From an uncultured Methanosarcinales archaeon (lineage in GTDB: Archaea > Nanobdellota > Nanobdellia > Woesearchaeales > UBA583), in the NCBI GenBank assembly GCA_964351975.1, contig CAYGPK010000001.1:85270-149269 (forward strand): a DNA stretch of 64,000 nt, in the 5' to 3' direction. Below the pieces are notes generated by a model. That model worked only from the letters and a program-made list of their open reading frames with translations. It searched no databases and was not told the origin of the DNA. This document shows, piece after piece, positions 3,169 to 62,748 of the stretch; the stretch's first letter is position 1, and each line of letters opens with the position of its first letter. The translations under genes were made by a program, and so were the position numbers.

Positions 3169-3513
3169 ATGTTAGCTAAAAGACACGACGAAAAACAGGA
3201 GTTTTCATTACTTGATACTGCTGTTATTAACTTAATTGTTGAAAAAACTAAGTTAAACAAGGAGAAGTATAGTCTAGTACTTTCTAAAACAGTTATAGTT
3301 TATGCACTGTTAATTTTAATTGCGGTGTATTCTTCTGTTCAAGAAATTATTTCAGGTCAAATTATGGTTGTGGCACTTATTGTTGGAACGCTTTTATTAT
3401 TTGTTGTTTATTTATATGTAATTGAACATTTTAATAAGATGGATAGAGATATTGATGAAGTTGTGTCACTTCTTCAAACTAAAGCTTTAATGCACAATAA
3501 AAATAATAAATAA
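3169..3513 (+). CDS. hypothetical small membrane protein
   Basis: ORF with two hydrophobic segments. No recognisable motif. Confidence 0.4.
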   Translation: MLAKRHDEKQEFSLLDTAVINLIVEKTKLNKEKYSLVLSKTVIVYALLILIAVYSSVQEIISGQIMVVALIVGTLLLFVVYLYVIEHFNKMDRDIDEVVSLLQTKALMHNKNNK

Positions 3514-3638
3514 TTCTTTTATTTTAATTTCAAATTTTGGATTTTATTTTTTACAAATTAATATCAAATCAGTTTCCTTCGAACCTTTTCTTTAACGTTT
3601 ACTTTCATGGCACTAAGAAAAGCTTCACCAAAAGAATC

Positions 3639-4172
3639 TTATTTTCTACAAACTAAAATTAAATCTTTTTCTTCTTCAATTTTTTCTTCTATTTTAAAAT
3701 ATTTATTTAATTCACTTATTATATTTTCTTTTTTAGATGATTTTTTTAGAAATGAGAGAATTAAAATCCCCTTATTTTTTAAAATTCTATTAATTTCTGA
3801 AATTACTTTTTTAGTATTTTCAACATCTTGAATTGCTGTAAATGAAATTATATTATCTATGGAATTTGTTTTTATTGGGATATTAGTTATTGATGCTTGA
3901 AGTTTATTTTTATTTGAATTATTTTTAAGCATTTTAAAACTTAAATCAAGGGAGATTAAGTTTTGTTTTTTATCTAAGAAATTATTCAAAACACCATCTC
4001 CTGAACCTAAATCTAAAATTGGAGATTGAAGATTGGGAAGGTGAGAAGAGACAAGAGAAATTTTTTTAATTTGCTCAGAATGGTATAATTCAGAATATCC
4101 TTTAGAAATAGCATCATAGTAAAACTGAGTTTTTTTAATTTGAGGAATTTCTAAACCTTTATTTTTTTCCAT
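3639..4172 (-). CDS. class I SAM-dependent methyltransferase
   Basis: Motif I ILDLGSGDGVL. Confidence 0.6.
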   Translation of the reverse strand: MEKNKGLEIPQIKKTQFYYDAISKGYSELYHSEQIKKISLVSSHLPNLQSPILDLGSGDGVLNNFLDKKQNLISLDLSFKMLKNNSNKNKLQASITNIPIKTNSIDNIISFTAIQDVENTKKVISEINRILKNKGILILSFLKKSSKKENIISELNKYFKIEEKIEEEKDLILVCRK

Positions 4173-15186: not shown

Positions 15187-15504
15187 TTATTTAATATCTT
15201 TTTTTGAGAGTGCTTTTATTCTTAAATATTTATCTTCAATTGAATGATTATCATAAGTATTTCCTTTTTTTAATTTTAGATGATTGAATTCATTTAATTC
15301 TTTATCGTGAATGTGCCAGGCAAGTTGTCCTTTTGGTGTTTCAATCATAACTATATTTCTTAGTTCTACTGGCCACTTTTCATCTTCAATTGGATGTTTT
15401 TCTAAATGAGAAGGAAATAATTTTGTTAAGAATAAAATTAGTTGATCTCTTTCCCAATAAGCAATGTCTTTATGTTCTTTATCTGTAAAATTAAGCTTGT
15501 TCAT
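15187..15504 (-). CDS. hypothetical protein
   Basis: 105-aa ORF overlapping the upstream Pop5-like gene by 14 nt (operon). Confidence 0.4.
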   Translation of the reverse strand: MNKLNFTDKEHKDIAYWERDQLILFLTKLFPSHLEKHPIEDEKWPVELRNIVMIETPKGQLAWHIHDKELNEFNHLKLKKGNTYDNHSIEDKYLRIKALSKKDIK

Positions 15505-16893: not shown

Positions 16894-17463
16894 TTGATGA
16901 TGAAAGGTAGGCGAGAAATAAGAAGTAGAAAAGCAGAACTTGGAATAGAAACTATGTTTTTTATTTTGATGGGTATTATTATGATTGCAATTATAGTTTT
17001 TGGTTTTAATAAGATTTTTTTAGTTAATGATACTTTATCACAATTAGAAGTTAATGATATGAAAAATCAAATTGAAGATGCCTTTAATCACTGTGAAGAT
17101 CCTCTTGCTAAGGGAGATGTTCAAGTTGTAAAATTTAAAAATAATTTATTTAATAGTGTATGTGTTATGAGTGGCGAGGTTACCCAAGATGATTTTTTAA
17201 ATCTTTTATATGAGAATGATATTAGTTATGATTTAAATAATATTGATTTTTTATATGGAGTTTTACGTGATGTTAATACTATTTTTCAAAGTGGAGATAA
17301 TGTAATTTTATTTGATTCTACTTTTATTAAAACTCAAGATACTTATTTATTATCCGATTTTCAAATCACACACAGTTTTAATGTTAATTTTGCATCTGAT
17401 AAATTATTTTGCCAATTTGATAAAGAGGGAGAAGGAGAGTTTGAGTTAAAACTTACTTGTTAG
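16894..17463 (+). CDS. putative archaeal type IV pilin-like protein (class III signal peptide)
   Basis: The N-terminus MMMKGRREIRSRKAELGIETMFFILMGIIMIAIIVFG has a charged region, then a K-A|E-L site fitting the FlaFind pattern, then a hydrophobic helix. Confidence 0.4.
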   Translation: MMMKGRREIRSRKAELGIETMFFILMGIIMIAIIVFGFNKIFLVNDTLSQLEVNDMKNQIEDAFNHCEDPLAKGDVQVVKFKNNLFNSVCVMSGEVTQDDFLNLLYENDISYDLNNIDFLYGVLRDVNTIFQSGDNVILFDSTFIKTQDTYLLSDFQITHSFNVNFASDKLFCQFDKEGEGEFELKLTC

Positions 17464-17475
17464 ATTACTTAAGTA

Positions 17476-17624
17476 TTTATCAATATATTTTCAAATAAAC
17501 CTTTTTTCGACGATTTTTCTTTTCGCAGTTTTTAAGTTCCGTTGAATCGAGAACTTAAACCTAGAAAATCGTAAAAAAGCTTTACCAAAAAATGGTGTTT
17601 TTATCAATATATTTTTAAATAAAC
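17476..17624 (+). repeat. palindromic ~97-bp element (17501..17597) flanked by a 25-bp direct repeat (17476..17500 and 17598..17624; 24/25 identical; contains TATA-like tttttaaataaac)
   Basis: Outer stem cttttttcgacgatttt / aaaatcgtaaaaaag. Inner hairpin taagttc-CGTTGAATCGAG-gaactta. The second direct-repeat copy sits 17-28 nt upstream of ATG 17641. Confidence 0.6.
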
Positions 17625-17640
17625 TAGAACTTAATAAGTT

Positions 17641-17871
17641 ATGAAGTCAGAAGATATCAAACTTGAGGCAAAAAATATTATGGATAATTTTATGTCTGCT
17701 ATGAAAGATATTGAAGTAGAGAATGATTTTATATTAGAGAGAGAAAATTCTTTTCGAGTAGAAGGAGATGGAGATGAATTAGATGAGAGTTTTAAGCAAA
17801 GATTTTTAGCAAATGCTAAAAGAACAACTGGTGATGCTATTCTCGCAAATAAAGGTGAGTGGGAGAGATAA
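17641..17871 (+). CDS. small acidic protein, possibly GatC-like
   Basis: LERENSFRVEGD...FKQRFLANAK resembles the GatC 'LReD...eeaLaNAP' region. Weak. No gatA/gatB nearby. Confidence 0.3.
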   Translation: MKSEDIKLEAKNIMDNFMSAMKDIEVENDFILERENSFRVEGDGDELDESFKQRFLANAKRTTGDAILANKGEWER

Positions 17872-18455
17872 ATATGGTAAAAAAAGAAGAAAACAAAAAG
17901 AAATATTTAAAGAAAGAAGAAGAAGGAGTTAGCAAACAAACTAAATATATGAGTTATTTTATTATTTTTATTATGATTTTTAGTGTAGCAGGTTTTGCAA
18001 TTTTAAGTGGAGGAGGAGGTAGTTTAGGAAGTTCTGGCACTTCTACCACTAGAGATTTACCTTTACAAGCAGATGTTTTTCAAAATCCACAAACTGGAGA
18101 AACTTATTGGGGAGCAGTTCTTAATGGTGAGCAATTTATTTTCTTTAATGGAGTTGAGGGTTATGAATTAAGAGAGGATATGAAAGGGATTGCTTCACAA
18201 ATTAAAAGTACTGAGTTTGTTAATATTTATGTTGATCCAAATTATCAATCTTCTGATGCTATTTATGTTGTTGAGAAAGCTTTAACTGGTCTGGAAATTT
18301 CACATCAAAGAATTACAGGAAATTTGAGTTGTACACCTAATACTTTAGTATTTACAAATAATATGACTGTAGATGGAGATTGTATTGTATTTGTAAGTCC
18401 ACAGGGTGAAGAGTATTTAGAATCAGATGTATTAGTTTATCATTTAATCAAATAA
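17859..18455 (+). CDS. membrane-anchored secreted protein, unknown function
   Basis: K-rich N-terminus, TM segment (YMSYFIIFIMIFSVAGFAIL) and a G/S-rich linker. The start may be the ATG at 17874 rather than 17859. Confidence 0.45.
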   Translation: MGEINMVKKEENKKKYLKKEEEGVSKQTKYMSYFIIFIMIFSVAGFAILSGGGGSLGSSGTSTTRDLPLQADVFQNPQTGETYWGAVLNGEQFIFFNGVEGYELREDMKGIASQIKSTEFVNIYVDPNYQSSDAIYVVEKALTGLEISHQRITGNLSCTPNTLVFTNNMTVDGDCIVFVSPQGEEYLESDVLVYHLIK

Positions 18456-18573
18456 ACCTTTTTTCTGCGATTTCTACTAATCGATGTCACAAACACCGTT
18501 GTATCGAGTGGTTTGTTCCTAAGAAATCGAAAAAAGCTTTACCAAAAAAAGTTTTTAATTTATTTCACAAACC
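18435..18573 (+). repeat. second copy of the palindromic element (core 18459..18550), with degenerate flanking repeats
   Basis: The termini aaaccttttttc and aaaaaagctttaccaaaaaa and the loop CGTTGTATCGAG are the same as in copy A. Outer stem cttttttc-tgc-gatttc / gaaatcg-aaaaaag. Inner stem acaaac/gtttgt. Confidence 0.55.
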
Positions 18574-19363
18574 ATTCTTGAATATCTTTTAGTGAGTATA
18601 TTCTTTTTGCATTTTTTTCAACATCATGAACTTTTAAAAGCCATTCTTCTTTAGGGTGAAATGGAGTTTTCCCAAAGTAGAGTTCTTTTGGAAGTATTTT
18701 TCTAATTGCTGTTTCATTTTTGTAGTTGGTATATTTTATTTTTACTTCTTCTTTTGCAAAGATTAGTATTTCAGGTAAAAGTTCTTCAAATTTATGAAGT
18801 ATTTTATGAGGGTTTCCATCATTTAAAACTTCAATACTATGAAATCCCCAACTAACTGCAAGTGATTTAACATTAACTTTATGAGCTTCTTTTAAATCTC
18901 CAAGCGTGTCTGTTATGAATAAACATTCTTCTGGTTTTAGATTATAATCCTTGAATAGCATTTTAAATTTTTCAACTTTAGAAGGATGTGTTTCTCTACC
19001 CATTATACTCTCAAAGTTTTTTTTTAAATCTACACTTTCAAGATACTTTGTTATTTTATTATTTCCTCCACTTGTTATTACATGTAGTTTAAATCTTTTT
19101 TTAAGGTTAGTAATAGTTTCAAAGATTGGTTCGAAAAAATGTTCTTCTTTTTTAAATCTTTGATTATGTTCAGAATCAAAACTCTCCATTGGTATTGTAT
19201 TAGTTGAGGTTTTAGGATTTTCGTAGACATTACTATTATGTAAATCCCTATATTCTTTTTCCTTCATTTTAGGATGGAAAACTTTAACTACTTCGTAATT
19301 CAATTTATAAGTATTGGCAATTACACCATCAAAATCAAAAATGACAGCTTTTAAATTGGTCAT
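18560..19363 (-). CDS. HAD-superfamily hydrolase with a C-terminal extension
   Basis: N-terminal VIFDFDGVIANT (HAD motif I). Confidence 0.7.
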   Translation of the reverse strand: MTNLKAVIFDFDGVIANTYKLNYEVVKVFHPKMKEKEYRDLHNSNVYENPKTSTNTIPMESFDSEHNQRFKKEEHFFEPIFETITNLKKRFKLHVITSGGNNKITKYLESVDLKKNFESIMGRETHPSKVEKFKMLFKDYNLKPEECLFITDTLGDLKEAHKVNVKSLAVSWGFHSIEVLNDGNPHKILHKFEELLPEILIFAKEEVKIKYTNYKNETAIRKILPKELYFGKTPFHPKEEWLLKVHDVEKNAKRIYSLKDIQEWFVK

Positions 19364-59820: not shown

Positions 59821-59926
59821 TTGAGTGTGCAGTACTTGAGATTATCTCGAGTGCGAAGAACGGAAGAAATGTTTACATTTCTAATGAGGTTAAATTTGAA
59901 TCTGTAGTAAAAATATAGTGTATTTG
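59821..59926 (+). other. 5' strand of the 23S rRNA processing stem (pairs with 62747..62816)
   Basis: 59888..59926 (ggttaaatttgaatctgtagtaaaaatatagtgtatttg) is complementary to 62747..62779. 59821..59829 (ttgagtgtg) pairs with 62808..62816. The stem begins immediately after tRNA-Ala. Confidence 0.7.
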
Positions 59927-62748
59927 TAAAATAATAAACTCTATTATGTGGATGACTTGGCTTGAGTAACGATGAAGGGCGTGGTTAGCTGCGATAATCG
60001 TAAGGTAGGGGCATACTCCCATTGAACTTACGGTACCTGAATTGGACTTCCTAATAATTCGCTAGACGAAGGTGTACCTGGGGAACTGAAACATCTTAGT
60101 ACCCGGAGGAAGAGAAATCAATTGAGATTCGGTTAGTAACAGCGAGTGAAAACCGATCAGATCAAACTGAATCTGTATTAGTAATAATATAGAGATGTGG
60201 TGTATGGAGCCTTGTTGGACCTTGATAAATGTTAAAATATTCTGGAAAGTATAACCTTAGAGGGTGATAGTCCCGTATGGCATTGTTGATAGGTTCTTTA
60301 GGAATTCCTGAGTAGTGTCTGTTGGAATTCAGGCATGAATATGGGGGACACTGACCTCCAAATCTAAATATAACTCAAGACCGATAGAGAATTAGTAGCG
60401 TGAGCGAATGTTGAAAAGAAGCCTTAATAGGTTTTGAAAAGATCTGAAACATACTAGAGATAGGATGATGCGGCGTTTAGGCGTTGCATCGTACGTTCTG
60501 AATAACGGGCCAGGGAGTTTATTTTTGTGGCAAGATGAAAGTCGAAGGGAAACCGAGTGGTGTTAATAGCGCCCATAGTCACAGGGATAAGACCCGAAAC
60601 CAGATGATCTATACCTGAGCAGGCTGAAGCGGGAGTAAAATCCCGTGGAGGGCCGAAGCTGTATCGCGTTTATTGATTTGTATGACTTGGGTATAGGGGT
60701 GAAAAGCCAATCGAATCTGGTGATAGCTGGTTCCAGTCAAAATTGGCCTTAGTCAAGCCTTCATGGAGAATGTTACAGGGGTAGAGCTACGGATTAGAAG
60801 GTTGGGGAGAGCAATTTCTTCATTTTTTAGTCCAACTCCGAATACTGTGACTTCGTAGAAGTGAGGAGACGGGATTACACGGGGTAAACTTGTAATCCGC
60901 GAGGGGAACAACCCAGACTACAGTTAAGGCCCCTAAATGATAATTAAGTGATAAAGGGTAAAGGGTGTGTGTATTCGAAGACAAAGAGGAGGTTTGCTTA
61001 GAAGCAGCAATCCCTTAAAGAATGCGTAACAGCTCACTCTTCGAGAGTATATGCCCCGAAAATAATCGGGTCTAAATTATCTGCCGATACTGTAGTTCAT
61101 GCACACGGTGCATGTAAGTTAGACTGGTGATGTGATAGGGTAGAAGTAAGTCTTCAAGGATTTGTGGACCTATTACATATAAGAATCCTGGCGGTAGTAG
61201 GAGAATAGAGGTGTGAGAGTCACCTCGGACGAAAGGGCAAGGGTTCCTTCTCAATGTAGTTCAGAGAAGGGTTAGTCACTCCTAACTCCTGTCCTAATTG
61301 GATAAGGGGGAAAGGGAAACAGATTAATATTTCTGTACTGTTTAGATAAACATGGTGACATAAGTACTATTTCGATCGGATAGGGCTAATTGCTACTAGA
61401 CTTGTCTAGTTTAAGAAGCATAAGACATTGGAGTGTTGTAATGACGAGAAAATGTTTAAACTTTTATGAGTAATTTGTGATGACGCCTAGTTTCTTTGAA
61501 AACGAAATAGTATTGATTCTAAATAAGTGTACCCACAACCGGCACAGGTGCCCCAAGGTGAGAAACCTAAGTCCTGCAGGGTTAATCTTTCTAAGGGAAT
61601 TCGGCAAATTAGCCACATGCCTTCGGTATATGTGGTCCCTGGAATATATGATAATTTCAATTAATTTCAGGGTGCAATAGCAAGGACGGTCCGACTGTTT
61701 AATTAAAACATAGCCAACTGCTAGGCCGTAAGGCTGCGTATAGTTGGTGAAGTCTGCCCACTGCCAGTAACTAAAACCCTTTTTCAAGGGGGCCAAGGTC
61801 TGGTAAAGGGCGGGGATAACTATGATCCTCTTAAGGTAGCGAAATGCCTTGCCGTTTAAATGACGGCTTGCATGAATGGCGTAACGAGATTGTCACTGTC
61901 CCTAGAAAGAACCCTCCGAATACACTATCCCGGTGCAAAAGCCGGGGACTCCAAGTGGGAAGTAAAGACCCCGTTGAACTTTACTGCAGCCTGCTATTGT
62001 GATCAATTTTATAGTATAACAAGGAGCTTCGGCGACAAGGTAGTACTTGTTGCTATGAAGTTGGTTGCTTATCCCTATATGGGAAACAGTAGTTGGTGGG
62101 CAGTTTGGCTGGGGTGGCACCCTGCTGAAAAGATATCAGCAGGGCCCAAAGGTTGGCTCAGTTGGTTTAGAAATCCAACGTAGAGTGTAAGGGCAAAAGC
62201 CAGCTTTATTGTGATTACCATAATACTAATCGCAATTTGGAAACAATGGCCTAACGATCTACAATGTGCTTCTTAGTGAGGCCTTGTATTGACAGAAAAG
62301 TTACCACGGGGATAACAGAGTTGTCGCTCCTGAGAGTTCATATCGACGGAGCGGTTTGCTACATCGATGTCGGCTCATCCTAACCTGGCACTGCAGCAGG
62401 TGCCAAAGGTGGGGGTGTTCACCCATTAAAAGGGTTCGTGAGCTGGGTTTACAACGCTGTGAGGCAGTTGGTATAATATCTGCTTGGAGTGTTTAGTATC
62501 TGCGAGAAAGATGCGTTTAGTACGAAAGGAACGGCGGGTCGTGGCCACTGGTGTATCTATTGTCCATATGGGCATGTAGAGCAGCTACGCCATCAGGGAT
62601 AAAGGCTGAAAGCATCTAAGCCTGAAACCCTCCTCTAAAAAAGATACATTGTTTGCGAGTAAAAGACTCGTTTGATAGGAGTGCGGTGTGCGATAGAAGC
62701 TAAAGCGACTATTTTAGCCGGCACTTACTAAAAAACATATTAAACACA
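59927..62748 (+). rRNA. rrl: 23S ribosomal RNA (~2.8 kb, boundaries +/-20 nt). No intron.
   Basis: Conserved 23S blocks are present: GTGGATGACTTGGC near the 5' end, GCGTAACAGCTCAC (~1090), a sarcin-ricin-like AGTACGAAAGGAAC (~62517), and the 3' block TTAGCCGGCACTTACTAA. GC content rises to ~50%. Confidence 0.9.

What the first reader, a model, noticed from the sequence alone, without database searches (positions are those of the whole stretch)
17501..17597. Structured ~97-nt palindromic element directly after a stop codon. It is copy A of a small family that varies by compensatory changes.
The element starts exactly at 'aaacc' after the stop of the pilin-like gene. It has an outer inverted repeat (cttttttcg-acgatttt / aaaatcgt-aaaaaag) and an inner hairpin, taagttc-[CGTTGAATCGAG]-gaactta. 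A second copy at 18459..18550 keeps the identical termini (aaaccttttttc ... aaaaaagctttaccaaaaaa) and the loop (CGTTGTATCGAG). Both of its stems differ in a compensatory way: the inner stem becomes acaaac/gtttgt, and the outer stem gatttt/aaaatc becomes gatttc/gaaatc. A conserved loop with co-varying stems is the classic signature of selection on RNA structure. This points to a structured 3'-UTR/terminator module, a small ncRNA, or a MITE-like element whose hairpin is functionally constrained. I do not recognise it as any standard RNA family. It is not C/D-box, tRNA-like or SRP-like.
Basis: partly seen in the sequence, partly recalled or inferred. Interest (0 to 1): 0.72.

Follow-up and report, generated by a model that had tools for sequence, protein, structure and literature searches.

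The report
Widespread clamp-hairpin repeat at gene ends
The two hairpins are real, have a third copy in the window, and belong to a very large family of small palindromic repeats with near-identical ends and free-varying interiors, found in many archaea and in giant viruses, so they are probably selfish DNA that may also act as a transcription stop, not a locus-specific regulatory RNA.

Summary
A (17497-17592) and B (18454-18549) are equally long. Their ends are identical (32/32 nt), the apical loop matches 11/12, and the remaining 52 nt match at 37%, yet both stems persist through compensatory changes. One detail is wrong: A lies 37 nt after its gene's stop codon, and only B abuts one. A third, shorter copy lies at 3581-3634. 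The shared ends, 5'-(R)AACC-T4-6 ... A4-6-GCTT-Y-ACC-A4-G, define a far larger family. A metagenome scan hit its 120-locus limit, on contigs of 22-71% GC. These include haloarchaea-like, Methanosarcinales and other archaeal contigs, giant-virus MAGs and a protein-primed-polymerase (pPolB) virus-like contig with 8 copies in 14 kb. Family members sit 0-2 nt behind stop codons, tRNA and SRP RNA 3' ends, in tRNA introns, inside a 23S rRNA gene and beside CRISPR repeats. Some carry flanking duplications (28 nt around A). No Rfam family matches and the sequence appears in no searchable paper. Best reading (about 0.5): a non-autonomous, REP/MITE-like palindromic element whose ends are the recognised part. 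It places oligo-T tracts before the hairpin on both strands, so it probably also stops transcription. Mobility and function are both inferred, not shown.

The parts
17497..17592 (+). Copy A, full element. Clamp helix P1 is 17497-17507 paired with 17573-17583, with a C.C mismatch at 17500/17580. P2 is 17510-17517 with 17565-17572. The asymmetric internal loop is 17518-17530 and 17560-17564. P3 is 17531-17539 with 17551-17559. The apical loop is 17540-17550. The single-stranded tail ACCAAAAAA is 17584-17592.
18454..18549 (+). Copy B, full element, starting inside the stop codon TAA (18453-18455) of the 193-aa gene. P1 is 18454-18464 with 18530-18540. P2 is 18468-18474 with 18523-18529. P3 is 18489-18496 with 18508-18516, with G18511 bulged. 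The apical loop is 18497-18507. The tail is 18541-18549. The stop codon of the convergent HAD hydrolase gene (18560-18562, minus strand) lies 10 nt beyond the tail.
3581..3634 (+). Copy C, a clamp-only member. GAACCTTTTCTT (3581-3592) pairs with AAGAAAAGCTTC (3615-3626), with the same C.C mismatch (3584/3623) and a G-C terminal pair in place of A-T. The loop is 22 nt and unstructured. The tail ACCAAAAG is 3627-3634. It lies between convergent genes: 3169-3513 on the plus strand and a methyltransferase at 3639-4172 on the minus strand.
17473..17500 (+). Upstream copy (DR1) of the 28-nt direct repeat around A: GTATTTATCAATATATTTTCAAATAAAC. Its last 4 nt form the start of A's clamp.
17597..17624 (+). 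Downstream copy (DR2) of the direct repeat: GTTTTTATCAATATATTTTTAAATAAAC. It contains TTTTTAAATA 19 nt before the ATG of the 76-aa gene (17641). A similar TTTAAATA box sits at the same distance in syntenic relatives, so DR2 is probably that gene's TATA-box region and DR1 a duplicate of it (inference).
17502..17507 (+). T6 tract at the 5' side of A on the plus strand. The equivalent tract in B is 18459-18464, 4 nt after the stop codon. It resembles an archaeal oligo-T termination signal (inference).
18530..18550 (-). On the minus strand of B the sequence reads TTTTTTTGGTAAAGCTTTTTT: two T tracts, beginning 9 nt after the stop of the HAD gene and lying before the hairpin. The equivalent region in A is 17573-17592.

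Best explanation
A, B and C are three copies of a small, non-autonomous palindromic repeat, which I call a clamp-hairpin element. It belongs to a very large family. The family is defined by its ends: 5'-(R)AACC-T4-6 at one side and A4-6-GCTT-Y followed by ACC-A4-G at the other. The two ends pair into a 9-12 bp clamp helix that usually carries one C.C mismatch. A single-stranded tail of about 9 nt follows. The interior is free to be anything that folds, from a 2-nt loop to a branched hairpin of about 80 nt. I think these are insertion-type, REP/MITE-like selfish DNA elements copied in trans by machinery not yet identified. That machinery would recognise the clamp and tail, and would need a hairpin, possibly in single-stranded DNA of the complementary strand. 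This would explain why the ends stay identical while the stems drift through compensatory changes. Where copies persist, directly behind stop codons and behind tRNA and SRP RNA 3' ends, they place oligo-T tracts in front of the hairpin on both strands. They therefore probably also work as two-way transcription stops or insulators between tightly packed genes. What is shown: the anatomy, the family, its distribution and its genomic contexts. What is inferred: mobility, the strand that folds, and the terminator effect.
For: Family. The clamp pattern finds exactly A, B and C in the window with 0 expected, although it was partly designed on C. A relaxed scan of those loci gave 224 copies, up to 8-9 per contig. 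Features that the search pattern did not force:
- The base before AACC covaries with the base after GCTT: A..T 90, G..C 40, G..T 14, against G..A 3 and A..C 5.
- 44-48% of interiors are significant hairpins, against 5% expected, and there are 71 unrelated interior types among 113.
Host range. Contigs range from 22 to 71% GC. They include GC-rich contigs with eIF2-gamma and A/V-type ATPase, a Methanosarcinales MAG, contigs with archaeal rRNA and SRP RNA, giant-virus MAGs with an mRNA-capping enzyme and a PolX-ligase, and a pPolB contig with 8 copies in 14 kb.
Insertion-like contexts:
- The canonical 37/38 introns of tRNA-Glu(UUC), Glu(CUC), Gly(UCC) and Val.
- A 57-nt insert in the conserved GAAA^CAUCU loop of a 23S rRNA, and a 63-nt insert in a second 23S loop.
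- Directly after CRISPR repeats.
- Tandem arrays.
- The same interior in different flanks: a 74-nt subfamily with 17 members.
Absence in relatives. Syntenic loci from relatives (45-50% protein identity) have no element at the two positions or anywhere in about 8 kb.
Flanking duplications: 28 nt around A, 15 nt in L185, 11 nt in L260.
Strand. The complementary strand folds better, 47 to 20 among cluster representatives (p = 2e-4). It has twice the G.U pairs, and 22 of 24 recurrent triloops read GAA on that strand. A and B show the same asymmetry.
Neighbours. Nearby genes are ordinary housekeeping genes, with no recurrent partner.
Against: No filled-versus-empty site was found between close relatives, so mobility is not demonstrated. 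There is no fixed-length target-site duplication. The flanking repeats vary from 11 to 28 nt and occur in only a minority of copies. No transposase carrying these ends was found. The one IS next to a copy has its own, different inverted repeats. Copies within one genome mostly have different interiors, which is not typical of recent copy-and-paste. The AACC end sits within 0-5 nt of a gene boundary far more often than random insertion predicts. In the pPolB contig there is about one copy per intergenic region. Both of these patterns look like a functional signal. All 8 copies that sit in or next to well-supported stable-RNA genes are in the sense orientation. That is unexpected for a pure DNA parasite. 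Homology across domains rests on a motif of about 25 nt.
Confidence: 0.5

Rival explanations
1. It is a cis-acting transcript-boundary signal that evolves in place. The clamp and tail would be read by a conserved factor of the archaeal-type transcription or RNA 3'-end machinery, and the hairpin would protect or define RNA ends. In this reading it is a terminator, 3'-processing site or stabiliser, comparable to the structure-only 'hairpin rule' signal of Mimiviridae.
For: A, B and C all lie in the sense orientation downstream of a plus-strand gene, 37, 0 and 68 nt after the stop. Many GC-rich copies begin at or inside the stop codon (TGA-ACC, TAG-AACC). L201 follows the ETF-alpha gene stop directly. 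Copies start 0-2 nt after tRNA and SRP RNA 3' ends, always in sense. In L233, each gene of a convergent pair has its own sense copy, arranged tail to tail. The pPolB contig has roughly one copy per intergenic region, with compensatory stem variation between copies. In Mimiviridae, mRNA 3' ends are made at palindromic hairpins that are not conserved in sequence (PMC4402537).
Against: A terminator inside tRNA anticodon-loop introns, with T4-T6 tracts, or inside a conserved 23S loop would be harmful. The window has only 3 copies for about 68 genes, so it is not the general terminator of this genome. Orientation relative to neighbouring genes is mixed: 15 copies face a gene end and 9 face a gene start. 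In the pPolB contig, 4 of 8 copies abut start codons in antisense. No single factor is known to be shared by haloarchaea, DPANN archaea and giant viruses that could read a specific 17-nt box. The bacterial-type layout of hairpin followed by U tract is absent.
Confidence: 0.25
2. It is a mobile mini-intron, or the seed of one. When transcribed inside a stable RNA the element is removed by the archaeal splicing endonuclease, which would allow it to colonise tRNA and rRNA genes as well as gene boundaries.
For: In four different tRNAs the element is in sense orientation and begins 0-2 nt after the 5' splice site at the canonical 37/38 position. In tRNA-Gly and tRNA-Glu the predicted fold shows the anticodon stem, a 3-nt bulge holding the 3' splice site, and a 4-bp helix, as in the bulge-helix-bulge (BHB) splicing motif. 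In a 23S rRNA the insert interrupts the conserved GAAA^CAUCU loop and again starts with GAACC.
Against: The 5' splice site lies in a 4x7-nt internal loop and not in a 3-nt bulge, so the motif is relaxed at best. The exon-pairing segment lies outside the element, so the element may simply have landed in pre-existing introns. A, B and C are intergenic and have no exons. Giant viruses have no such splicing system known to me. The 23S of L265 has many other inserts that lack the element.
Confidence: 0.08
3. It is a gene for a small stable RNA. Candidates are an H/ACA-like guide (lower stem, pocket, upper stem, K-loop, 3' box) or a tRNA-acceptor-like minihelix ending in ACCA, processed out of co-transcripts.
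For: The clamp helix is followed at once by single-stranded A-C-C-A, like an acceptor stem with discriminator and CCA. The terminal pair covaries. A and B have a stem, internal loop, stem and conserved apical loop, with GA...GA in A. Functional small RNAs are known to reside in archaeal tRNA introns (my own knowledge).
Against: There is no Rfam hit, even at permissive thresholds. The 3' box is ACC, not ACA. In A the lower stems place it about 21 nt from the internal loop, not 14-16 nt. The GA of the putative K-loop is GT in B. The ACC varies in the family (ATC, ACT). The interior ranges from 2 to 80 nt, so no common guide or pocket exists. T tracts precede the hairpin on both strands.
Confidence: 0.07
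4. It is a site-specific recombination site of the integron attC type, marking gene-cassette boundaries, with A and B bracketing the two-gene unit 17641-18455.
For: An imperfect palindrome of 50-100 nt directly after a stop codon, with conserved ends, a variable structured middle and a better-folding bottom strand, is the layout of attC sites (my own knowledge). A and B are direct repeats flanking two genes.
Against: The attC core sites RYYYAAC and GTTRRRY are not present at the ends. The two genes between A and B are in conserved synteny in relatives that lack the elements, so they are not a cassette. No recombinase lies among the neighbours. Orientation relative to genes is mixed in other loci.
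Confidence: 0.04

Closest known systems
REP/BIME elements of bacteria (repetitive extragenic palindromes, mobilised by RAYT Y1 transposases)
   Same: Both are small (about 25-40 nt in minimal form) imperfect palindromes with a short conserved single-stranded flank on one side. Both are high-copy and extragenic, often sit just behind stop codons, and occur singly, as inverted pairs (L233) or in arrays. Both show a strand-specific folding preference, with stems that vary while structure is kept.
   Different: The conserved flank is TTTTGGTR/YACCAAAAG plus an AACC..GCTT clamp, not GTAG or CGTC. The hosts are archaea and giant viruses, not bacteria. The interiors can be long and branched. No RAYT-like gene was found or searched for genome-wide.
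MITEs (miniature inverted-repeat transposable elements), reported as abundant in Woesearchaeota and Halobacteriales (PMC11602168)
   Same: Both are short, non-coding and AT-rich at the ends, with terminal inverted repeats (the clamp). Both are dispersed in many copies, with subfamilies that share an interior, and both are absent from syntenic relatives.
   Different: There is no fixed-length target-site duplication and no partner insertion sequence with the same ends. The element is asymmetric, with an 8-nt tail at one end only. It is much smaller than usual. The ends are conserved across domains while interiors are unrelated.
Mimiviridae 'hairpin rule' polyadenylation/termination signals (Byrne 2009; Priet 2015, PMC4402537)
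   Same: Both are intergenic palindromes at transcript ends whose structure is conserved rather than their sequence. The present family occurs in giant-virus MAGs and in marine AT-rich contigs, directly abutting the AAAATTGA early-promoter octamer.
   Different: The published signal is described as not conserved at the nucleotide level. Here about 25 nt of flank are conserved, and the same flanks occur in archaea.
Integron attC sites
   Same: Both are structured imperfect palindromes after the stop codon, with conserved ends, a variable middle and a bottom-strand folding bias.
   Different: The core sites are absent, the flanked genes are syntenic chromosomal genes, and no integrase is nearby.
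Archaeal oligo-T intrinsic terminators
   Same: T6 lies 4 nt after the stop of the 193-aa gene in B. T7 plus T6 lie on the opposite strand 9 nt after the stop of the HAD gene.
   Different: Oligo-T terminators need no hairpin and no GCTTYACC box, and only 3 of about 68 genes in the window have the element.

Membership tests
REP/BIME (RAYT-associated) | Imperfect palindrome of 20-40 nt, extragenic, in many copies | tested here: met
   Minimal members are 26-33 nt. There are 3 copies in 64 kb here and up to 8 in 14 kb elsewhere.
REP/BIME (RAYT-associated) | Conserved GTAG or CGTC tetranucleotide at the 5' foot of the hairpin | tested here: not met
   The flank is AACC on one strand and CTTTTGGTR on the other.
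REP/BIME (RAYT-associated) | A RAYT (Y1 HUH) gene in the same genome, flanked by REPs | not tested
   Only the immediate neighbours and 121 flanking ORFs of other loci were scanned. No Y1_Tnp appeared among the 25 families listed (of 143 hit) or the ORFs scanned singly. Whole genomes were not available.
MITE | Terminal inverted repeats | tested here: met
   The clamp is 11-12 bp with one mismatch in A, B and C.
MITE | Target-site duplication of fixed length directly flanking the ends | tested here: not met
   Flanking repeats are 28, 15 and 11 nt, occur in a minority of copies, and lie at variable distance from the ends.
MITE | Autonomous insertion sequence with the same ends | tested here: inconclusive
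   None was found in 2.3 Mb of fetched loci. The IS in L233 has different inverted repeats. An IS91-family gene in L262 lies about 700 nt away with no shown link.
Integron attC | Core sites RYYYAAC (5') and GTTRRRY (3') that pair with each other | tested here: not met
   AATAAAC and GTTTTTA around A and B fit the consensus poorly, and C and most family members have no GTT at the 3' side.
Integron attC | Bounds mobile, mostly promoterless cassettes next to an integrase | tested here: not met
   The genes between A and B are syntenic in relatives without the element. No integrase lies among the neighbours.
Archaeal H/ACA guide RNA | ACA box directly 3' of the lower stem, 14-16 nt from the pocket | tested here: not met
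   The box is ACC, and about 21 nt of stem separate it from the internal loop in A.
Archaeal H/ACA guide RNA | K-turn or K-loop with tandem G.A pairs in the upper stem | tested here: inconclusive
   A has GA...GA with a 4-nt bulge. B has GT...GA.
Any Rfam 15 family | Covariance-model match at or near the gathering score | tested here: not met
   Nothing was found at the gathering threshold, and only weak matches (E of 0.4 or more) at the permissive threshold. Nothing overlapped the elements in 34 other loci.
Archaeal bulge-helix-bulge intron | Two 3-nt bulges separated by a 4-bp helix at the exon-intron junctions | tested here: inconclusive
   In the tRNA cases the 3' bulge and the 4-bp helix are predicted, but the 5' site lies in a 4x7 internal loop. 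This does not apply to the intergenic copies A, B and C.
Archaeal oligo-T terminator | Run of at least 5 T shortly after the gene end on the coding strand | tested here: met
   T6 is at 17502-17507 and 18459-18464. T7 and T6 lie on the minus strand of B.
Archaeal oligo-T terminator | RNA 3' ends map to the T run | not testable with these tools
   No transcript data are available.
tRNA-like minihelix | Helix followed by discriminator base and CCA | tested here: inconclusive
   ACCA follows the clamp in A, B and C, but family members have ATCA, ACTA and GACC variants.

The most novel reading that the evidence does not exclude
The clamp-hairpin is a new class of very small mobile element shared by archaea of several phyla and by giant viruses and their pPolB satellites. 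It would either ride on a universal host activity or behave as a mobile mini-intron, spliced out of tRNA and rRNA. The about 25 conserved nucleotides would be the recognition site of a still unknown, cross-domain enzyme.
Probability: 0.12. Interest if true: 0.9.

Novelty: new variant of a known kind. Interest (0 to 1): 0.7.

Why it matters
If the family is what it appears to be, about 25 nucleotides are kept from 22%-GC archaea to 70%-GC haloarchaea-like contigs and on to Mimiviridae-like viruses, while everything between them is free to vary. Conservation that deep in a non-coding repeat implies a shared machine that reads it, either a mobilising enzyme or a transcript-end factor, and that machine is not yet identified. 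The family would also explain part of the high small-repeat load reported for Woesearchaeota and Halobacteriales. It gives a concrete sequence for studying how tiny genomes punctuate tightly packed genes. It links some tRNA introns and rRNA inserts to a repeat family. It would serve as a practical marker for annotation, and it coincides with assembly breaks: the three short contigs found for this region all end inside the elements.

Tried and rejected
1. Rfam at gathering and permissive thresholds, on the window and on 34 loci, gave no family for the element.
2. The genome-collection scan for CCTTTTTT..AAAAAAGCTTTACC gave 30 single hits. Of these, 28 look like chance, leaving one Methanosarcinales tRNA intron and one Komagataeibacter site. 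The source genome is not in that collection.
3. A strict scan for the A/B apical loop plus the 3' end found nothing in metagenomes and only stem-less chance hits in viral contigs. The loop is therefore private to A and B.
4. A profile search (nhmmer) with the A/B alignment found only A, B and a marginal hit to C in the window, and nothing in the syntenic relatives.
5. I tested whether the ends encode a protein motif. Open frames span many copies, but the frame is inconsistent (38/21/22) and the flanks are repeat-derived, so this was rejected.
6. I looked for an 'empty target site', that is GAACC joined directly to GCTTCACC. It is not seen in 2.3 Mb of loci.
7. I looked for filled-versus-empty sites by all-against-all BLAST of the fetched loci, and by fetching other contigs that carry the same neighbour proteins. 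Neither gave any.
8. I looked for a partner transposase. The neighbours are housekeeping genes, and the DDE transposase in L233 has unrelated inverted repeats.
9. Full-text searches for the sequence gave no relevant paper. The one curiosity is that GCTTCACCAAAAG is printed in a paper that uses the Un1Cas12f1 guide RNA.
10. The bacterial-type terminator scan found none.
11. The attC, H/ACA, K-loop, T-loop and promoter (BRE/TATA) readings were each considered and failed on defining features. See the membership table.
Full report
**1. What is in the window**

The window comes from an AT-rich archaeon: about 27% GC, with an archaeal 23S rRNA at 59924-62747 and three tRNAs. Genes are tightly packed, with typical gaps of 10-130 nt.

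Element A lies in the 177-nt gap between ORF 16894-17463 (no Pfam hit) and a 76-aa ORF at 17641-17871. Element B lies in the 104-nt gap between a 193-aa ORF (17874-18455) and a convergent HAD-family hydrolase gene (18560-19363, minus strand).

A and B are the same length and 957 nt apart in direct orientation. Segment by segment:
- 5' end: 12/12 nt identical.
- 3' end plus tail: 20/20 nt identical.
- Apical loop: 11/12 nt identical.
- Everything else: 19/52 nt identical.

Three helices are nevertheless present in both copies:
- P1, the clamp, is AAACCTTTTTT/AAAAAAGCTTT with a C.C mismatch. It does not vary.
- P2 has one T-A to C-G double change.
- P3 is 9 bp in A and 8 bp plus a bulged G in B. 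Five pairs are changed on both sides.

A chance stem of that quality at that position has a probability of about 0.006. Both copies fold better than shuffles, z about -2.8. The observation therefore stands.

One point is wrong. A starts 37 nt after the real stop codon (TAG, 17461-17463). Only B overlaps a stop.

**2.

First, A is bracketed by a 28-nt direct repeat, 17473-17500 and 17597-17624, 26/28 identical. It is unique in the window. The downstream copy carries TTTTTAAATA 19 nt before the ATG of the 76-aa gene. A similar box sits at the same distance in syntenic relatives. The repeat therefore looks like a duplication of that gene's TATA-box region around an inserted segment (inference).

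Second, there is a third copy, C, at 3581-3634, between convergent genes. C has the same clamp with the same C.C mismatch, the same tail (ACCAAAAG) and no inner hairpin. Its terminal clamp pair is G-C where A and B have A-T.

All three copies are on the plus strand, each downstream of a plus-strand gene. No further copies were found with relaxed patterns.

**3. The family outside the window**

The source organism is rare. Only short, identical Logan contigs exist, and they break inside the elements.

Relatives with the same gene order exist at 45-50% identity for the 193-aa protein. The shared order is RimK, Rpp14/Pop5, a membrane protein, the 76-aa gene, the 193-aa gene and topoisomerase. These relatives have no element at either position or anywhere else in their roughly 8-kb loci.

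A scan for the A/B loop plus the 3' end found nothing. A scan for the clamp alone, AACCTTTT..(21-81 nt)..AAAAGCTTYACCAAA, stopped at the 120-locus limit. By comparison, an earlier scan of similar information content in 596 Gb of genomes gave 30 hits, and 28 of those showed no further feature.

In the metagenome set most hits share features the pattern did not ask for:
- A stable interior hairpin: 44-48% have z below -1.65, against 5% expected.
- 71 unrelated interior types among 113 unique interiors.
- Covariation of the pair that closes the clamp: A..T 90, G..C 40, G..T 14.
- The extra A and G after the tail.
- Several copies per contig.

About 10-15% of hits lie in long real ORFs without a hairpin and look like chance.

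**4. Who carries it**

Contig GC ranges from 0.22 to 0.71.
- GC-rich contigs encode eIF2-gamma, A/V-type ATPase A and B subunits and ETF-alpha. That is consistent with haloarchaea (inference).
- One genome hit is a Methanosarcinales MAG.
- Other contigs carry archaeal 16S/23S rRNA, SRP RNA or archaeal-type AdoMet synthetase.
- A scan of viral contigs for the 16-nt box also hit its limit. 38 of those matches have the 5' partner within 90 nt, against about 1 expected by my estimate.
- Among the viral hits are giant-virus MAGs encoding an mRNA-capping enzyme, an SNF2 helicase and a PolX-ligase.
- A group of AT-rich marine contigs shows the element directly abutting TCAATTTT, the reverse complement of the Mimiviridae early-promoter octamer AAAATTGA (PMC4402537).
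- A 17.7-kb contig encoding a pPolB has 8 copies in 14 kb, about one per intergenic region.
- One isolate bacterium, Komagataeibacter, has a minimal copy.

The cross-domain claim rests on about 25 conserved nucleotides plus the shared architecture.

**5. Where copies sit**

- Gene ends. In many archaeal copies AACC starts at or inside the stop codon. L201 follows the ETF-alpha gene stop directly.
- Stable-RNA 3' ends. Copies begin -1 to 2 nt after the 3' end of tRNA-Val, tRNA-Trp and tRNA-Pro, and 1 nt after an SRP RNA.
- tRNA introns. Copies form most of the canonical 37/38 intron of tRNA-Glu(UUC), Glu(CUC), Gly(UCC) and Val. They are always in sense and start 0-2 nt after the 5' splice site. 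Two further ARAGORN calls with introns of 150-167 nt are not supported by Rfam and were set aside; one of them would be antisense.
- rRNA. In L265 a 57-nt insert starting with GAACC interrupts the conserved GAAA^CAUCU loop of 23S rRNA. A 63-nt insert sits in a second hairpin loop.
- CRISPR arrays. In L270, copies follow CRISPR repeats directly.
- Tandem arrays. Arrays of 28-30-nt minimal units occur in L148 and L210.

The AACC end is the one that abuts functional sequence. That holds for 7 of 8 copies in the pPolB contig, and the AACC end is nearer to an ORF than the tail end in 16 of 24 copies on AT-rich contigs. Orientation relative to protein genes is mixed: 15 copies face a gene end and 9 face a gene start.

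Flanking direct repeats longer than in mismatched controls occur in a minority of copies. Repeats of 11 nt or more flank 12 of 149 copies against 7 of 737 controls, and some of the 12 come from tandem arrays. Independent cases are A (28 nt), L185 (15 nt) and L260 (11 nt).

**6. Which strand folds**

Every pair in A and B is Watson-Crick. Across the family the complementary strand, 5'-CTTTTGGTRAAGCTTTT..hairpin..AAAAGGTTY, is predicted to be more stable:
- 78 interiors against 29.
- 47 against 20 among cluster representatives (p = 2e-4).
- The same direction with DNA energy parameters (p = 0.02).

That strand has twice the G.U pairs. The commonest apical loop reads C-UUC-G on the plus strand 22 times and C-GAA-G twice. 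So it is a GAA triloop, GCGAAGC-like, on the complementary strand. From my own knowledge, that triloop is a notably stable DNA and RNA mini-hairpin. A and B show the same asymmetry, -26.3 and -23.5 against -21.3 and -19.4 kcal/mol.

There is a caveat. The asymmetry could also reflect G-poor unpaired regions in a plus-strand RNA, and all copies linked to stable-RNA genes are in sense. The strand question stays open.

**7. Interpretation**

Several facts argue against a locus-specific riboregulator and for an insertion-type repeat:
- Conserved ends with unconstrained but foldable interiors.
- Dispersed subfamilies.
- Presence in introns, rRNA loops and CRISPR arrays.
- Absence from syntenic relatives.
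- Flanking duplications.
- A host range that crosses domains.

In such a repeat the ends would be what the propagation machinery reads. In architecture it is closest to bacterial REP elements and to MITEs, but it fails their defining sequence features: no GTAG tag, no fixed target-site duplication and no partner IS.

The exact placement at gene and RNA ends, the density of about one copy per gap in the pPolB contig, and T tracts ahead of the hairpin on both strands all point the other way. They suggest that resident copies act as two-way transcription stops or end-protecting hairpins. That may be why they persist.

I give the selfish-repeat reading, with a probable terminator side-effect, about 0.5. 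A purely host- or virus-encoded end signal gets about 0.25. A mobile mini-intron, a stable small RNA and an attC-like site share most of the remainder.

Mobility itself is not shown. No filled/empty pair was found.

**8. Novelty**

No Rfam 15 family matches. Full-text searches for the conserved sequence found nothing relevant.

A 2024 survey reports very high MITE densities in a Woesearchaeal genome and in a Halobacteriales strain, but does not describe this element in the passages I read (PMC11602168). The Mimiviridae hairpin signal is described as not conserved in sequence (PMC4402537).

I therefore rate it as a new variant of a known kind: small palindromic extragenic repeats. A minority reading would make it categorically new.

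Noticed in passing
window 17473-17500 and 17597-17624: A 28-nt direct repeat brackets copy A. The downstream copy holds a TTTTTAAATA box 19 nt before the ATG of the 76-aa gene. The upstream copy has TTTTCAAATA instead, one of its two differences, which makes its last 10 nt identical to the 10 nt before copy B.
   Followed up: partly
L152 4568-4640, L154 4490-4560, L156 3565-3600, L160 3525-3600: In several distant relatives the 3' end of the orthologous 193-aa gene (..VYH[LM][IV]K*) is repeated just downstream. L152 and L160 have a small unrelated hairpin between the copies, and L156 has a plain tandem copy. Hairpin insertion with flank duplication seems to recur at this gene end without the clamp motif.
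   Followed up: partly
L152 3873-4000 and L154 3799-3926: A 128-nt segment separates the 75-aa and 193-aa genes, which are 19 nt apart in L156 and 2 nt apart in the window. It is bracketed by a repeated AAAAATGGT that includes the start codon, so it looks like another small insertion.
   Followed up: no
L270 4800-6600 (minus strand): Several short CRISPR arrays (36-nt repeat GTTTCAATCCTTGTTTTCTTAGACTCTCCTGCAAC, 72-nt period) are separated by repeated leader-like blocks. Clamp-hairpin copies sit directly after the last repeat, and a perfect AAACCTTTTT..AAAAGGTTT hairpin sits directly before the first repeat.
   Followed up: partly
L265 264-8887: An archaeal rRNA operon with a 23S gene stretched to 5.7 kb and a 16S gene in at least two separated pieces. 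It has many inserts of 54-114 nt, and only some of them contain the clamp-hairpin.
   Followed up: partly
Un1Cas12f1 (Cas14a1) guide RNA, from literature: GCTTCACCAAAAG is printed in a paper that uses the Un1Cas12f1 guide RNA. From my memory of that scaffold (not re-read here), GAACC comes directly before it, which would be the clamp with the T tract, hairpin and A tract missing. As I recall, the nuclease comes from an uncultivated DPANN archaeon. This may be coincidence or a remnant.
   Followed up: no
L151, L293, L294 (Logan contigs identical to the window): All three short contigs end inside or at the edge of elements A or B: at the apical loop, a stem or the clamp. The palindromes or their shared ends seem to break short-read assemblies.
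   Followed up: no
L215 183-479 and 1340-1528; L212, L226: The 74-nt subfamily copy lies inside an open frame that, by eye, resembles the start of a polysaccharide-deacetylase-like protein (..ILRIDVD..[insert]..LVDDLNERGIKASLFF). There is no Pfam hit, so in-frame insertion into a gene is unverified. In L215 a segment of about 250 nt that includes the copy is duplicated around a cassette that looks by eye like a nucleotidyltransferase/HEPN pair.
   Followed up: partly
L233 1791-1918 and 2011-4736: Two clamp-hairpins lie tail to tail around a GC hairpin between convergent units. About 90 nt away is an IS with a DDE_Tnp_1 transposase and its own 18-nt inverted repeats (GCTTTGTGTAATAAACCC).
   Followed up: yes
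L262 710-1960: An IS91-family rolling-circle transposase gene (Y2_Tnp plus Zn_Tnp_IS91) lies about 700 nt from an 84-nt clamp-hairpin. On the complementary strand the element ends in GGTTC, which contains GTTC, the IS91 target tetranucleotide as I recall it. No link is shown.
   Followed up: no
L223 2473-2502 and L003 3190-3215: A perfect mini-hairpin (AAACCTTTTTCGGTAAAAAGGTTT in L223; GACCCTTTTTTGAAAAGGGTC in L003), without the tail box, sits directly before the 5' end of the tRNA-Glu(CUC) whose intron holds a full element.
   Followed up: no
L009 (Komagataeibacter xylinus NBRC 15237), around 1711-1807: A minimal copy, GAAGCTTTTTGAAAAAAGCTTTACCAAAAAC, lies next to a GC-rich terminator-like hairpin in a 66%-GC bacterial isolate genome. 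It is the only bacterial instance seen.
   Followed up: no
window 15187-15504: A 105-aa ORF with a WDGH domain overlaps the start of the RNase P Rpp14/Pop5 gene by 14 nt on the minus strand. This is unrelated to the finding.
   Followed up: no
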